Below are positions 4,370 to 10,325 of a stretch of DNA of 12,750 nt, one piece after another. The first letter of the stretch is position 1. Each line of letters begins with the position of its first letter. The notes beneath the pieces are model-generated. The model searched no databases and was not told where the DNA came from. It saw only the letters and a list, made by a program, of their open reading frames with translations. This stretch comes from a virus: the UHGV virus genome UHGV-1339304, one strand, 5' to 3'. The translations under genes were made by a program, and so were the position numbers.

Positions 4370-4398
4370 AGAATACTACAGGTATTCAAAGCAATCAA
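4370..4398 (-). promoter_or_regulatory. pR promoter (-35 TTGATT, 17 nt spacer, -10 TATTCT, read on the minus strand)
   Basis: Reverse complements of 4393..4398 and 4370..4375. Overlaps the operator sites and lies about 25 nt upstream of the cro ATG. Confidence 0.55.
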
Positions 4399-4436
4399 TA
4401 CTCAGGGTATTTTTAGTTTAAGTACCTTAGCTATTA
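4372..4436. promoter_or_regulatory. OR operators: AATACTACAGGTATT (4372..4386), AATACTCAGGGTATT (4397..4411), and a degenerate third site AGTACCTTAGCTATT (4421..4435)
   Basis: 15-bp dyads with AATAC/GTATT half-sites at 24-25 bp spacing between divergent cro and cI. The third site overlaps the putative pRM -10. Confidence 0.6.
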
Positions 4437-4446: not shown

Positions 4447-5163
4447 ATGGAAAATAAAAAATCACTGACGACAGAACAGCTGGAAGACGCTAAGCGGCTT
4501 AAGGCTTTGTATGAGTCAAAAGAGAAAGAATTGGGGATAACCCAATACTCAATCGCTGATGAACTGGGTATCACCCAAGGAGCGGTAGGGCATTATCTTA
4601 ATGGCAGAAACGCGCTAAACGTTGAGGTTGCATCTGGTTTTGCACGACTGTTGCAAGTCTCAATTGCTGATTTTAGCCAGTCAATTGCTGCCAAGGTTGC
4701 AGAACAGGCAGAAAGCCTTAAGAGCGATGCCAACGTAAGGTATGCAGGGGAATACAGAGCAGGAAAGAGGTATCCGGTGTTAAGCAGTATCCAGGCTGGC
4801 TCGTGGTGTGAAGCATGCGAACCATACACCATTAAAGACATAGATGTTTGGCTTGAGTCTGACGCGCATATTCAAGGTAATGCGTTCTGGCTTAAAGTGG
4901 AAGGTGATTCAATGACGGCACCGGTTGGGTTAAGCATTCCAGAGGGAACATTCGTTCTTTTCGATACCGGAAGGGAGGCGATCAACGGCAGCTTGGTCAT
5001 AGCAAAACTTTCTGACTCTAACGAAGCAACATTCAAGAAGCTGATAATCGACGGCGGAAATAAATACCTCAAGGGACTTAATCCTGCATGGCCTCTCGTG
5101 CCAATCAATGGAAACTGCAAGATTATAGGCGTTGCAATTGAGACAAAACTAAGGCTGGTTTGA
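4447..5163 (+). CDS. cI: CI repressor (HTH N-terminal domain plus LexA/S24-type autocleavage C-terminal domain)
   Basis: 238 aa. LTTEQLEDAKRLKALYESKEKELG and FWLKVEGDSMTAPVG...EATFKKLIIDGGNKYLKGLNPAWP align with lambda CI ([24 protein letters not shown]...FWLEVEGNSMTAP...[23 protein letters not shown]). Confidence 0.9.
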   Translation: MENKKSLTTEQLEDAKRLKALYESKEKELGITQYSIADELGITQGAVGHYLNGRNALNVEVASGFARLLQVSIADFSQSIAAKVAEQAESLKSDANVRYAGEYRAGKRYPVLSSIQAGSWCEACEPYTIKDIDVWLESDAHIQGNAFWLKVEGDSMTAPVGLSIPEGTFVLFDTGREAINGSLVIAKLSDSNEATFKKLIIDGGNKYLKGLNPAWPLVPINGNCKIIGVAIETKLRLV

Positions 5164-5180
5164 TCACGCAAGGGGCGATT

Positions 5181-5549
5181 ATGGTTGGAACCGCTATAGC
5201 AAGCTTTTTTGGGATGTTGGCAATCTCGACAATTTACGGCTTAGCGCATGCTTTTATTGCGAAATCTCTATCAGAAAAAATAAGCCAGGCTTGGGCGCAT
5301 AGATCAGCTCGTTTCATGATTCTAGTGATCATAGCAATACAAGGGATATCTGCATTTATCCTCTATGGTTCAAGCTTATACCTGTTGTATCAAGGCGCGA
5401 CATTTACGCCTTACACCAGTGATTACGGAACTCTATACGATGGTAGTGAAGACATCTCTATGGCTTGGATTGTCTTTGGTTTATCTATGGCCGTGTCTGT
5501 TGTAGCAGATATCATTAAGGTAATTCTCGTCTTAACCTTCGCTGACTAA
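5181..5549 (+). CDS. small multi-pass membrane protein translationally coupled to cI (rexAB-slot moron)
   Basis: 122 aa from ATG 5181 with AAGGGG SD, 18 nt after the cI stop (the ORF-track start at 5160 is a TTG). Three long hydrophobic segments. Visibly more AT-rich than the flanking genes. Confidence 0.6.
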   Translation: MVGTAIASFFGMLAISTIYGLAHAFIAKSLSEKISQAWAHRSARFMILVIIAIQGISAFILYGSSLYLLYQGATFTPYTSDYGTLYDGSEDISMAWIVFGLSMAVSVVADIIKVILVLTFAD

Positions 5550-5635
5550 CCTATAATCCCGGCAGCAATAGCTATCGGGATCCACTTCACATATCCCGCA
5601 TAAAAAGCACTGAACAAGCAGACACCGAAAAAATA

Positions 5636-5720
5636 AATATCCTTTGTATTCATTTGCTTATCATTATTTCATCAAAAATAAATACCTTGGGTATTTACAC
5701 AATAAAATACCTACAGTATT
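5636..5720. promoter_or_regulatory. OL operators: AATATCCTTTGTATT (5636..5650), AATACCTTGGGTATT (5681..5695), AATACCTACAGTATT (5706..5720)
   Basis: Same AATAC-N5-GTATT dyad as OR. The last two sites are 25 bp apart, as at OR. Confidence 0.55.
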
Positions 5721-5722
5721 CT
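5694..5722 (+). promoter_or_regulatory. pL promoter (-35 TTTACA, 17 nt spacer, -10 TATTCT)
   Basis: Hexamers read directly; overlaps the OL sites; same -10 as pR; points toward nutL and N. Confidence 0.5.
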
Positions 5723-5768
5723 TTAGCCATCAGCAGGACGCTGGTAGCCAAACGGAACATATTGGCAG

Positions 5769-5916: not shown

Positions 5917-6189
5917 ATGACAGTAGTCATTACATATCTGGCTGACGATAACGCCAGAAATCGCCGCAGAGCACGCAGACAGGCTCAACGTGAACAGGCA
6001 ATGCAAGAGCAGCGACTGGCGCGAAAAATTGCGCTAAAGCTCTCTGGTTGCGTCAGAGCAGACAAAGCAGCATCGCTAGGAAGCCTTCTCAGCAAGAAGG
6101 CAGATGAATGCAGTGGAAGTATTTGCCTGCCAAACGTAGCTATTTACGCAGCAGGCTACCGGAAATCAAAACAACTGACAGCCAGGTAA
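5917..6189 (+). CDS. N: N-type transcription antiterminator
   Basis: 90 aa with an N-terminal arginine-rich motif NARNRRRARRQAQREQ. GGAGG SD 5 nt upstream. Directly downstream of pL/nutL. Confidence 0.7.
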   Translation: MTVVITYLADDNARNRRRARRQAQREQAMQEQRLARKIALKLSGCVRADKAASLGSLLSKKADECSGSICLPNVAIYAAGYRKSKQLTAR

Positions 6190-6192
6190 GTG

Positions 6193-6421
6193 ATGAATCA
6201 GACATACATTCCATCATNNNNNNNNNNNNNNNNNNNNNAAGCAGAAAGCAAAGCCCCGCAAGCAAGCCATAAAGGACGCTAAGGCAGAGGTTATTGATCA
6301 AGCAATACAATTGCTCAGGGAGGAGTTAAGAAGTGGCAAGCTCGAAGGAATGATGATGCCCTATCAGCGCGGATATCTATCGGCGATTAGTAAGTTGGAA
6401 GTATTGAAGAGTGAATTATGA
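6193..6421 (+). CDS. hypothetical protein interrupted by an N-run (frame across the gap unverifiable)
   Basis: ATG 6193 opens MNQTYIPS before the gap. After the gap only one frame is open (from 6239), reading KQKAKPRKQAIKDAKAEVIDQAIQLLREELRSGKLEGMMMPYQRGYLSAISKLEVLKSEL and stopping at 6419..6421. With 21 Ns as written the two frames do not match. Confidence 0.3.
6218..6238. other. run of 21 N (masked or unresolved bases)
   Basis: Literal n characters in the sequence. Confidence 1.
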
Positions 6422-9541: not shown

Positions 9542-9963
9542 AACTAATGTCACTAATTGAGATGGATGGTTTTCTGAAAGGTAAATGCTTACCACGAGAT
9601 TTAAAGGTTAACGAAACAAACGCTGAATATCTGGTGCGTAAATTTTCTGAAGCGGAGGCTAAGTGTGCGGCGCTGGCGGCGGAGAATGCGGCGCTGAAGT
9701 CTGGCGCTATGGGCGAAATCGAGGTTATCAACCGTGGAGGGCAGGCATATTGCGTAAAAGATGGAGTGCAAGTTAATCCCATGTATGCAAGAGGGTGGAA
9801 TGACTATCGCGCAAAGTCTCTGCAATCAGACACCCCAGCCACCGATGCTTTCCTGGATGAAGTACGTGCGCAGGGCGTGGATATGGCTCGTAACGCGATG
9901 ATTGATTTTGTCGATGNNNNNNNNNNNNNNNNNNNNNNCCAAACAAGAACGTTCCGGGGCTGA
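9538..9963 (+). CDS. hypothetical protein interrupted by an N-run
   Basis: ATG 9538 with GGAG SD (the ORF-track start at 9520 is a GTG). Alanine-rich, coiled-coil-like middle ([20 protein letters not shown]). Continuity across the 22-N gap to the stop at 9961..9963 is assumed, not shown. Confidence 0.4.
9917..9938. other. run of 22 N (masked or unresolved bases)
   Basis: Literal n characters in the sequence. Confidence 1.
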
Positions 9964-10021: not shown

Positions 10022-10325
10022 GTGACTGTATGTCTTATTGATAAACGTCGACGTGGACAACAAATACCATCTGTTGAAATGCCGAATCACACATGGTTTT
10101 GCGTACTTGATATCGATGGTATGGATAAGTTTGTTGACACTCGTCATTACTNNNNNNNNNNNNNNNNNNNNNNNNNNNNNNNNNNNNNNNNNNNNNNNNN
10201 NNNNNNNNNNNNNNNNNNCTCCACCTGATGGTTGGTGCAATGGGAATGATCGAGATTGGCACGAAAAAATGAAGGGCTATATCTGCGATTTTTTACGTAA
10301 ATGCAACGGCTTCAGGGTGATGTGA
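10022..10325 (+). CDS. hypothetical protein interrupted by a 67-N run
   Basis: GTG 10022 preceded by AAGGAGG at a 6 nt spacing. A 43-codon open frame reaches the gap. After the gap an open frame ends at 10323..10325 (…PPDGWCNGNDRDWHEKMKGYICDFLRKCNGFRVM). Whether these are one protein cannot be decided. Confidence 0.3.
10152..10218. other. run of 67 N (masked or unresolved bases)
   Basis: Literal n characters in the sequence. Confidence 1.

What the first reader, a model, noticed from the sequence alone, without database searches (positions are those of the whole stretch)
5160..5549. Lysogen-expressed multi-pass membrane protein in the cI-pL moron slot: candidate superinfection-exclusion or abortive-infection function
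A 122-codon ORF starts 18 nt after the cI stop with its own SD, so it should be co-transcribed with cI from pRM and made in the lysogen. It has three long hydrophobic segments and a short polar loop. Its base composition is visibly more AT-rich than cI and N on either side, as expected for an acquired moron. It occupies the position where lambda carries rexA-rexB, a known exclusion system. I do not recognise the protein and it does not resemble RexB, so it may be an uncharacterised exclusion determinant.
Basis: partly seen in the sequence, partly recalled or inferred. Interest (0 to 1): 0.65.

Follow-up and report, generated by a model that had tools for sequence, protein, structure and literature searches.

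The report
HkaS: small membrane protein behind cI
The ORF is a real, conserved gene (hkaS of phage HK620, function never determined) for a three-pass inner-membrane protein that always sits right behind one type of prophage repressor; a role in excluding other phages is plausible but untested.

Summary
ATG 5181 to TAA 5549 encodes a 122-aa protein. It starts 17 nt after the cI stop, behind an AAGGGG Shine-Dalgarno, and has three hydrophobic helices (AF2 pLDDT 92). It is not unknown as an ORF: it is hkaS of phage HK620, annotated 'unknown' (PHROG 6534, unknown function). It has no Pfam, NCBIfam, PADLOC or PDB match and no informative fold match. It shows no similarity to RexB, SieA, HK97 gp15 or 434 Hex.

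The family is small and confined to Enterobacterales: 33 clusters, all 121-122 aa. In all 15 loci examined, and as one cassette in 146 of 5426 complete E. coli genomes, it lies between the same cI type and three OL operators. It is under purifying selection (dN/dS 0.12) and has the same synonymous divergence as cI.

So it is an old, integral part of this immunity cassette, not a recently acquired AT-rich moron. Its lower GC comes from codon position 1, that is, from amino-acid composition.

Function is inferred only. By position (lambda rexAB, 434 hex, 933W kinase) and by type (small inner-membrane protein with no partner gene), heterotypic phage exclusion at the inner membrane is the best guess (about 0.4). 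The rivals are modulation of prophage induction and a host-physiology role. Interest is moderate to low.

The parts
4371..4436 (.). OR1-OR3 operators with the divergent pR/pRM region (context; presumed start of the cI-hkaS transcript)
   Evidence: Mapped from the HK620 record annotation. OR1 and OR2 match AATAC-N5-GTATT exactly.
4447..5163 (+). cI repressor (238 aa; HTH_3 plus Peptidase_S24), first gene of the presumed pRM operon
   Evidence: Pfam HTH_3 at 1.4e-9 and Peptidase_S24 at 5e-24. It is 99% identical to HK620 cI.
5170..5175 (+). Shine-Dalgarno AAGGGG for hkaS, 5 nt before the ATG, inside the 17-nt cI-hkaS spacer
   Evidence: Read directly from the sequence. An AAGG-type SD and a 17-20 nt spacer are conserved in divergent loci.
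5181..5549 (+). hkaS: 122-aa three-pass inner-membrane protein. Predicted topology is N-terminus out, C-terminus in. Basic loop 28-44 faces the cytoplasm and acidic loop 71-93 faces the periplasm.
   Evidence: 97.5% identical to HK620 HkaS. PHROG 6534, E = 2.9e-79. Hydropathy profile. AF2 pLDDT 92.3. dN/dS 0.12. 33 homologous clusters of 121-122 aa.
5556..5581 (+). Stable RNA hairpin just after the hkaS stop, with no U-tract. Candidate 3'-end or termination element of the cI-hkaS transcript.
   Evidence: dG -13.7 kcal/mol, z -3.6. A hairpin occupies the same place in three other lineages although the sequences differ.
5550..5634 (+). C-rich, G-poor 3' untranslated stretch between hkaS and the distal operator
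   Evidence: C:G is 25:13 in the window and 20:13 to 33:11 in six other lineages. Length is 66-98 nt.
5635..5651 (.). Distal operator-like site, the probable true OL3. It bounds the immunity cassette immediately downstream of hkaS.
   Evidence: AATATCCTTTGTATT has one mismatch to AATAC-N5-GTATT. The window has 5 such sites against 0.34 expected. The site is conserved 45 bp upstream of OL2 in 7 lineages.
5680..5729 (+). OL2, OL1 and pL (context; downstream boundary)
   Evidence: HK620 annotation, exact operator matches and the promoter-like site at 5694-5722.
5917..6189 (+). N antiterminator (context). It lies outside the cassette and differs between lineages that share cI-hkaS.
   Evidence: Pfam N_peptide at 3.4e-15. 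N is only 19-37% identical in loci whose cI is 80-95% identical.

Best explanation
hkaS encodes a 122-aa inner-membrane protein with three transmembrane helices. The predicted topology is N-terminus in the periplasm, a basic amphipathic loop in the cytoplasm, an acidic beta-hairpin loop in the periplasm, and the C-terminus in the cytoplasm.

It is the second cistron of the cI transcript, so it should be made in the lysogen in step with the repressor. It is a fixed component of the HK620-type immunity cassette (OR-cI-hkaS-OL).

The most likely function is that of a single-protein accessory factor that protects the lysogen against heteroimmune or unrelated phages at the cytoplasmic membrane. My preferred mechanism is interference with DNA entry, or with a membrane component that incoming phages need. 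This is how P22 SieA, HK97 gp15 and T4 Imm work. I prefer it to a sensor-triggered system because no partner gene is present.

Shown here: gene reality, membrane character, position, conservation and selection. Inferred: co-transcription, topology and the exclusion function.
For: Gene and protein:
- Full-length homologues at 52-83% identity, all 121-122 aa.
- dN/dS 0.12, with dS equal to that of cI.
- Three hydrophobic helices and a confident AF2 model.
- Charge distribution: K28, K33, R41 and R44 in loop 1; D81, D87, E90 and D91 in loop 2. By the positive-inside rule (established knowledge) this gives N-out/C-in.

Operon:
- A 17-20 nt spacer with an SD in every lineage.
- No promoter-like or terminator-like site between cI and hkaS.
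- A hairpin and a C-rich untranslated stretch follow the stop, then three operators at fixed spacing.
- The HK620 annotators also placed the end of the cI transcript after hkaS.

Linkage and retention:
- The order cro<-|cI->hkaS->OL/pL->N holds in all 15 metagenomic or genomic loci examined, from Escherichia, Hafnia, Salmonella, Klebsiella, Citrobacter and Cronobacter.
- Of 5426 complete E. coli genomes, 146 match the 1.6-kb cassette and all 146 cover at least 80% of it, so none lacks hkaS.

Functional prior:
- The genes characterised so far in this slot all give heterotypic exclusion: lambda rexAB, 933W kinase and 434 hex (PMC3564112 introduction; slot equivalence).
- Known single-gene entry blockers are small inner-membrane proteins (P22 SieA, PMC10883804; T4 Imm, PMC11436027; for HK97 gp15 that review only lists the Cumby et al. 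2012 reference, whose title calls it a superinfection exclusion protein, and its membrane location is my own knowledge).
- There is no second gene between cI and OL that could act as a sensor.
Against: - There is no experimental evidence of any kind for expression or phenotype. No paper on hkaS function was found.
- There is no sequence, profile or fold similarity to any known exclusion or defence protein: PADLOC none at E <= 10; Pfam and PHROG none beyond its own family; RexB, SieA, gp15 and Hex hhalign probabilities below 1%; fold searches non-specific.
- The most conserved parts are the cytoplasmic loop and the cytoplasm-proximal C-terminal half of helix 3 (mean column entropy 0.94 and 0.57). 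The distal periplasmic loop is the least conserved (1.59). A pure periplasmic-side block of DNA passage would predict a conserved periplasmic face, unless that loop is a fast-evolving specificity element.
- The cassette rides with many virion types: P22-like podoviruses, lambda- and HK97-like siphoviruses and Stx phages. It is therefore not matched to one injection machinery.
- Strict linkage to cI is expected for any gene lying between OL and OR, so it says nothing about function.
Confidence: 0.4

Rival explanations
1. Abortive infection by a membrane pore. HkaS oligomerises into, or gates, an ion-conducting channel that depolarises the cell when a superinfecting phage perturbs the membrane. 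This would be a RexB-like effector working without a RexA-type sensor.
For: It occupies the same slot as rexAB. Polar or charged residues are invariant inside the helices: Q54 in helix 2, and D110 and K113 in helix 3. Such residues are typical of oligomeric or conducting membrane proteins (inference).
Confidence: 0.15
2. Modulator of the lysis-lysogeny switch. HkaS tunes prophage stability or induction, as 434 Hex does (it blocks RecA-stimulated repressor cleavage) and as proposed for lambda RexA/RexB. It might act through its conserved cytoplasmic face, on cI or on membrane proteases such as FtsH/HflKC.
For: 434 Hex sits in the same slot behind a cI that is 52% identical, and it stabilises the lysogen about 30-fold (PMC3564112). 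RexA/RexB are reported to assist the lysogenic-to-lytic transition (bioRxiv 10.1101/2021.04.19.439022, abstract only). The most conserved HkaS surfaces are predicted to face the cytoplasm. The gene is found only with one cI type.
Against: HkaS is almost entirely membrane-embedded, with only about 17 cytoplasmic loop residues. It is unrelated to Hex. HkaS diverges far faster than cI (52-83% against 86-95% identity), which does not fit a tightly co-evolving partner. Linkage to cI is explained by position alone. A Serratia phage cI of 71% identity has an empty slot.
Confidence: 0.15
3. Lysogenic-conversion or host-physiology factor. HkaS would be a small membrane protein that modulates a host transporter or sensor, or gives immunity to a membrane-damaging toxin such as a pore-forming colicin or a holin. 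It would benefit the lysogen independently of phage attack.
For: Many small inner-membrane proteins act as regulators of transporters or sensor kinases, and E1-type colicin immunity proteins are three-helix proteins of about 110-120 aa (my own knowledge, not tested here). The cassette is retained in 2.7% of complete E. coli genomes from varied sources. In E. coli LF82 an unrelated 'transmembrane protein' two locus tags from the Perceval prophage cI (LF82_152 against cI LF82_154) is the most highly expressed prophage gene listed, at 81-fold over background (PMC9928086; not hkaS).
Against: No Pfam or NCBIfam family, colicin immunity families included, matches at E <= 1-10. The family is found only in lambdoid immunity cassettes and never in chromosomal or plasmid contexts. 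All characterised occupants of the slot act on phages or on the switch.
Confidence: 0.15
4. Not a functional gene: a chance ORF or a decaying remnant carried along with cI.
For: The window contains many spurious long ORFs. A few database variants have a frameshifted N-terminus (P0005, P0007, P0009).
Against: dN/dS is 0.12-0.2, with saturated synonymous change in the deeper comparisons. Length is constant at 121-122 aa over 33 clusters, and 22 residues are invariant. The AF2 model is confident from only 7 sequences. Intact forms far outnumber frameshifted ones (cluster sizes 525, 53 and 45 against 1-2).
Confidence: 0.02

Closest known systems
HK620 hkaS (AAK28867.1) / PHROG 6534
   Same: It is the same gene: 97.5% amino-acid identity, the same position between cI and OL, and a full-length match to the PHROG profile.
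   Different: Nothing of substance differs. Both are annotated 'unknown' or 'hypothetical'. The window's phage differs from HK620 elsewhere, for example in its replication genes.
Lambda RexB (with RexA)
   Same: Same slot between cI and OL on the pRM transcript. Both are small multi-pass inner-membrane proteins made in the lysogen.
   Different: There is no sequence or profile similarity (hhalign probability 0.7%). HkaS has three helices and 122 aa; RexB has 144 aa and four helices (my own knowledge). There is no RexA-like partner gene in the cassette.
Phage 434 Hex
   Same: It is the second cistron behind a related cI (52% identity), in the same slot, co-transcribed from pRM.
   Different: As currently annotated, Hex is a 134-aa protein with an N-terminal signal-like segment and a soluble body. 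It is unrelated to HkaS. Its known activities are exclusion of P22 and inhibition of RecA-stimulated repressor cleavage.
P22 SieA, HK97 gp15 and T4 Imm (single-gene blockers of DNA entry)
   Same: They are small proteins that act alone and are made in the lysogen (in the infected cell for T4). SieA is reported as an inner-membrane protein and Imm as a blocker of DNA injection. The membrane location of gp15 and Imm is my own knowledge. These are the functional analogy I favour.
   Different: No similarity to SieA or gp15, and no Pfam hit to Imm or SieB families. Those genes lie elsewhere in their genomes and have their own promoters. SieA is tied to P22-like virions, whereas hkaS travels with the immunity cassette across virion types.

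Membership tests
HkaS family (PHROG 6534) | Full-length match to the family profile | tested here: met
   phrog_6534, E = 2.9e-79, residues 1-122 of 122. 97.5% identity to HK620 HkaS.
HkaS family (PHROG 6534) | Position immediately downstream of an HK620-type cI and upstream of OL | tested here: met
   Same order in the HK620 record and in 15 other loci. Operators at fixed spacing follow the gene.
Lambda RexB | Sequence or profile similarity to RexB | tested here: not met
   hhalign probability 0.7%. No Pfam hit at E <= 1.
Lambda RexB | Adjacent rexA-like sensor gene | tested here: not met
   hkaS is the only conserved ORF between cI and OL.
Lambda RexB | Location between cI and OL on the pRM transcript | tested here: met
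   Synteny with lambda. Co-transcription itself was not tested.
P22 SieA | Sequence or profile similarity | tested here: not met
   hhalign probability 0.3%.
HK97 gp15 | Sequence or profile similarity | tested here: not met
   hhalign probability 0.2%.
434 Hex | Sequence or profile similarity | tested here: not met
   hhalign probability 0.07%. Hex has a signal-like N-terminus and a soluble body.
Known anti-phage defence proteins (PADLOC-DB v2) | Match to any defence-system HMM | tested here: not met
   0 families at E <= 10.
Moron (autonomously expressed acquired gene) | Own promoter and terminator, and composition foreign to its neighbours | tested here: not met
   No promoter-like site upstream (a weak test). 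GC3 is within the window's range and the deficit lies at codon position 1. dS equals that of cI. The gene is present with this cI type in every lineage examined.
Superinfection exclusion / abortive infection (functional class) | Reduced plating or productive infection of a challenging phage that depends on the gene | not testable with these tools
   This needs deletion and expression experiments. No published data were found.
Integral inner-membrane protein, N-out/C-in | Three transmembrane helices with the positive-inside charge distribution | tested here: met
   Hydropathy and charge map, AF2 helices. Topology is predicted, not measured.

The most novel reading that the evidence does not exclude
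HkaS founds a new family of single-gene, membrane-embedded lysogen-protection factors that is hard-wired into one immunity cassette. Its invariant cytoplasm-facing motifs (QAWxHRxARF and DIxKxIxVLTFAD-COOH) would couple events at the membrane, either phage entry or envelope stress, to the fate of the cell or of the prophage switch. That would be neither a plain entry block nor a two-component Rex-type system.
Probability: 0.1. Interest if true: 0.65.

Novelty: new member of a known kind. Interest (0 to 1): 0.33.

Why it matters
The slot behind cI on the pRM transcript is where lambdoid prophages keep functions that act in the lysogen: rexAB, hex and the 933W kinase. This occupant has been in GenBank since the HK620 genome, yet no function has been reported for it.

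It is carried by about 2.7% of complete E. coli genomes, including Stx2c-converting phages, and by prophages of Salmonella, Klebsiella, Citrobacter, Cronobacter and Hafnia. HK620 and mEpX2 are available as isolated, sequenced phages, and the gene is only 369 bp.

If it excludes phages, it adds a new, very small defence family that current defence finders miss, and it would affect host-range predictions for lysogens. If it tunes induction instead, it bears on the stability of Stx prophages. Either way it is an incremental addition to a known category, not a new principle.

Tried and rejected
- Family libraries. Pfam gave only sub-threshold hydrophobic matches (Cation_ATPase_C at 19 bits against a cut-off of 27; TssN). 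NCBIfam and PADLOC gave nothing.
- PDB sequence search with the family profile: no hit at E <= 10.
- Exhaustive phmmer search of 1.84 billion representatives. Only one other genuine 50% cluster was found. The matches to proteins of 342-2371 aa are repeats or compositional artefacts.
- Profile search. It widened the family to 33 clusters, all with the same architecture and taxonomic order, and found no relative in a different context.
- Direct profile comparisons with RexB, SieA, gp15 and Hex: all negative.
- Literature. 'hkaS' returns only herbarium codes. HK620 plus hkaS returns nothing. The HK620 exclusion, HK620 transcriptome and mEpX2 searches found nothing on this gene. The original HK620 paper is not held.
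- LF82 transcriptome lead. The highly expressed transmembrane protein near the Perceval cI is a different gene.
- The convergent 35-aa hydrophobic ORF (5546-5653), considered as a possible toxin or antisense partner. Rejected as a conserved gene. Its start lies in the distal operator, its body overlaps the 3' hairpin, and it is absent from the Salmonella and L007-type lineages.
- Rfam: no RNA family in the window at gathering threshold.

Full report
**1. What is there**

The window is a lambdoid early region shown with cI on the + strand. On the minus strand lie ninB, a DnaB-type helicase, O, cII and cro. On the plus strand lie cI (4447-5163), the target ORF, N (5917-6189) and recombination genes.

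The ORF listed from TTG 5160 is in frame with ATG 5181. The ATG is the real start. The divergent Salmonella loci have an in-frame stop directly before their ATG, and all lineages keep an AAGG-type Shine-Dalgarno 5-7 nt upstream. The gene is therefore 5181-5549, 122 codons, starting 17 nt after the cI stop.

**2. Identity**

The 600 bp around the ORF are 98-99% identical to 16 phage records: HK620, mEpX2, HK630, HK140, HF4s, HZ41, 611R6, phi296, phi367 and two Stx2c phages. In HK620 the gene is hkaS, with product 'unknown'. It matches PHROG 6534, 'unknown function', over its full length. It has no significant match in Pfam, NCBIfam, PADLOC or PDB sequences. I found no paper that deals with its function.

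**3. The protein**

- Hydropathy shows three hydrophobic segments.
- AlphaFold2 with only seven sequences gives pLDDT 92.3 and pTM 0.79. The model has helices 2-29, 41-73 and 89-121, a short amphipathic helix at 31-38, and a beta-hairpin in the second loop.
- Loop 1 carries K28, K33, R41 and R44. Loop 2 carries D81, D87, E90 and D91. By the positive-inside rule this predicts N-terminus out and C-terminus in.
- Fold searches returned only generic helical bundles.
- Profile comparisons with lambda RexB, P22 SieA, HK97 gp15 and 434 Hex were all negative, with probabilities below 1%.

**4. Family and context**

A single-sequence search found 12 clusters. An exhaustive search of 1.84 billion representatives found only one other genuine 50% cluster. 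A profile search found 33 clusters, all 121-122 aa. Where a source names the organism, they come from Escherichia, Hafnia, Salmonella, Klebsiella aerogenes, Citrobacter and Cronobacter.

In all 15 loci I inspected the order is cro<-|cI->hkaS->operators/pL->N, with a 17-20 nt cI-hkaS spacer. cI is 80-95% identical across these loci, HkaS is 52-83% identical, and N is only 19-37% identical and belongs to different families. The mosaic boundary therefore falls after hkaS.

In complete E. coli genomes, 146 of 5426 match the 1.6-kb cro-cI-hkaS-OL block. All 146 cover at least 80% of it, so none lacks hkaS.

A more distant cI in Serratia phage OS31 (71% identity) has nothing in the slot. Lambda has rexAB there and 434 has hex. 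At deeper divergence the slot is a variable cargo site.

**5. Selection and the 'moron' idea**

Window against the Hafnia-type locus gives dN/dS of 0.12 for hkaS and 0.03 for cI, with nearly equal dS (0.78 and 0.76). The two genes share a history, and hkaS is under purifying selection, though with about four times the non-synonymous rate of cI.

GC is 41.5% against 45.9% for cI. The gap lies at codon position 1 (0.43 against 0.53). GC3 (0.40) is matched by other genes in the window. The AT-richness reflects hydrophobic amino-acid usage, not foreign origin.

**6. Conservation map**

Over 28 sequences the invariant residues are S8, Y19, W38, H40, A43, R44, F45, I47, L48, Q54, Y67, L69, T74, G88, W96, F99, D110, K113, I115, T119 and A121. 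The lowest column entropy is in the C-terminal half of helix 3 plus the C-terminus (0.57) and in the cytoplasmic loop (0.94). The highest is in the distal periplasmic loop (1.59). Two motifs stand out, QAWxHRxARFIIL and DIxKxIxVLTFAD. On the predicted topology both lie at or near the cytoplasmic face.

**7. The 3' end**

Each lineage has a stable hairpin just after the stop. The sequences differ and none has a U-tract. A C-rich, G-poor stretch of 66-98 nt follows, and then three operator-like sites at fixed spacing of 0, +45 and +70.

The distal site (5635-5651) fits the operator consensus. The OL3 annotated in the HK620 record (5658-5674) does not. The pRM transcript runs in the same direction as pL and N, so it must end in this interval. 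How it ends is not established.

**8. Function**

Nothing here measures function. The arguments for phage exclusion are as follows.
- Every characterised occupant of this slot has an exclusion phenotype (PMC3564112).
- Known single-gene entry blockers are small inner-membrane proteins.
- No sensor partner is present.

The arguments against are as follows.
- There is no homology to any defence protein.
- The conserved face is cytoplasmic.
- There is no association with a particular virion type.

I put heterotypic exclusion at the inner membrane at about 0.4, with an entry block favoured over an abortive-infection pore. A Hex/Rex-like role in prophage stability gets about 0.15, and a host-physiology role about 0.15.

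**9. Verdict**

The gene is already catalogued as hkaS, and its function is an open but conventional question. It is best described as a new, sequence-orphan member of the known class of pRM-operon accessory genes. Interest is moderate to low. The hypothesis is cheap to test, because HK620 and mEpX2 are available as isolated phages and the gene is small.

Noticed in passing
window 5635-5651 (compare 5658-5674): A conserved operator-like 17-mer, AAATATCCTTTGTATTC, lies 45 bp upstream of OL2 in all 7 lineages checked. The HK620 record labels this stretch as part of 'tIMM' and places OL3 at a sequence (TTATCATTATTTCATCA) that does not fit the operator consensus. The real OL3 is probably the distal site.
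   Followed up: partly
window 5550-5634: The hkaS 3' untranslated region has a stable hairpin (5556-5581) without a U-tract, followed by C-rich, G-poor sequence. Hairpins of different sequence occupy the same place in other lineages. This may be a Rho-dependent or non-canonical end of the pRM transcript, which must stop before pL and N.
   Followed up: partly
window 5546-5653, minus strand: A convergent 35-aa hydrophobic ORF (MNTKDIYFFGVCLFSAFYAGYVKWIPIAIAAGIIG) has a stop that overlaps the hkaS stop. Its start lies in the distal operator and its body overlaps the hairpin. It is absent from the Salmonella and L007-type lineages, so it is probably not a gene.
   Followed up: yes
proteins P0005, P0007, P0009 (E. 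coli and metagenome variants of hkaS): Rare variants have a doubly frameshifted N-terminus that replaces helix 1 with non-hydrophobic sequence. They could be sequencing errors or occasional inactivation. Intact forms dominate (cluster sizes 525, 53 and 45 against 1-2).
   Followed up: no
L014:2409-2813 (lambda imm434): As re-annotated, 434 Hex starts with a signal-peptide-like segment (MIRIAALLSILLTTSANSEC...). This suggests an exported or lipid-anchored protein, which sits oddly with its reported action on RecA-stimulated repressor cleavage in the cytoplasm.
   Followed up: no
L015:5550-7915 (E. coli LF82 prophage Perceval): Two unrelated hypothetical genes follow the Perceval repressor. The LF82 transcriptome paper lists a 'transmembrane protein' two locus tags from that cI (LF82_152 against LF82_154) as expressed 81-fold above prophage background. 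This may be another example of a highly expressed membrane protein near cI; I did not map LF82_152 onto these genes.
   Followed up: partly
window 6218-6239, about 9915-9940 and about 10150-10220: Runs of N (masked bases) interrupt ORFs downstream of N and in the ea/recombination region, so gene calls there are incomplete.
   Followed up: no
window 4447-5549 compared with loci L003-L024: Within this immunity type, cI is unusually conserved (86-95% amino-acid identity across six genera), while the adjacent HkaS has diverged to 52-61%. The neighbouring cistrons of one operon evolve at very different rates.
   Followed up: partly
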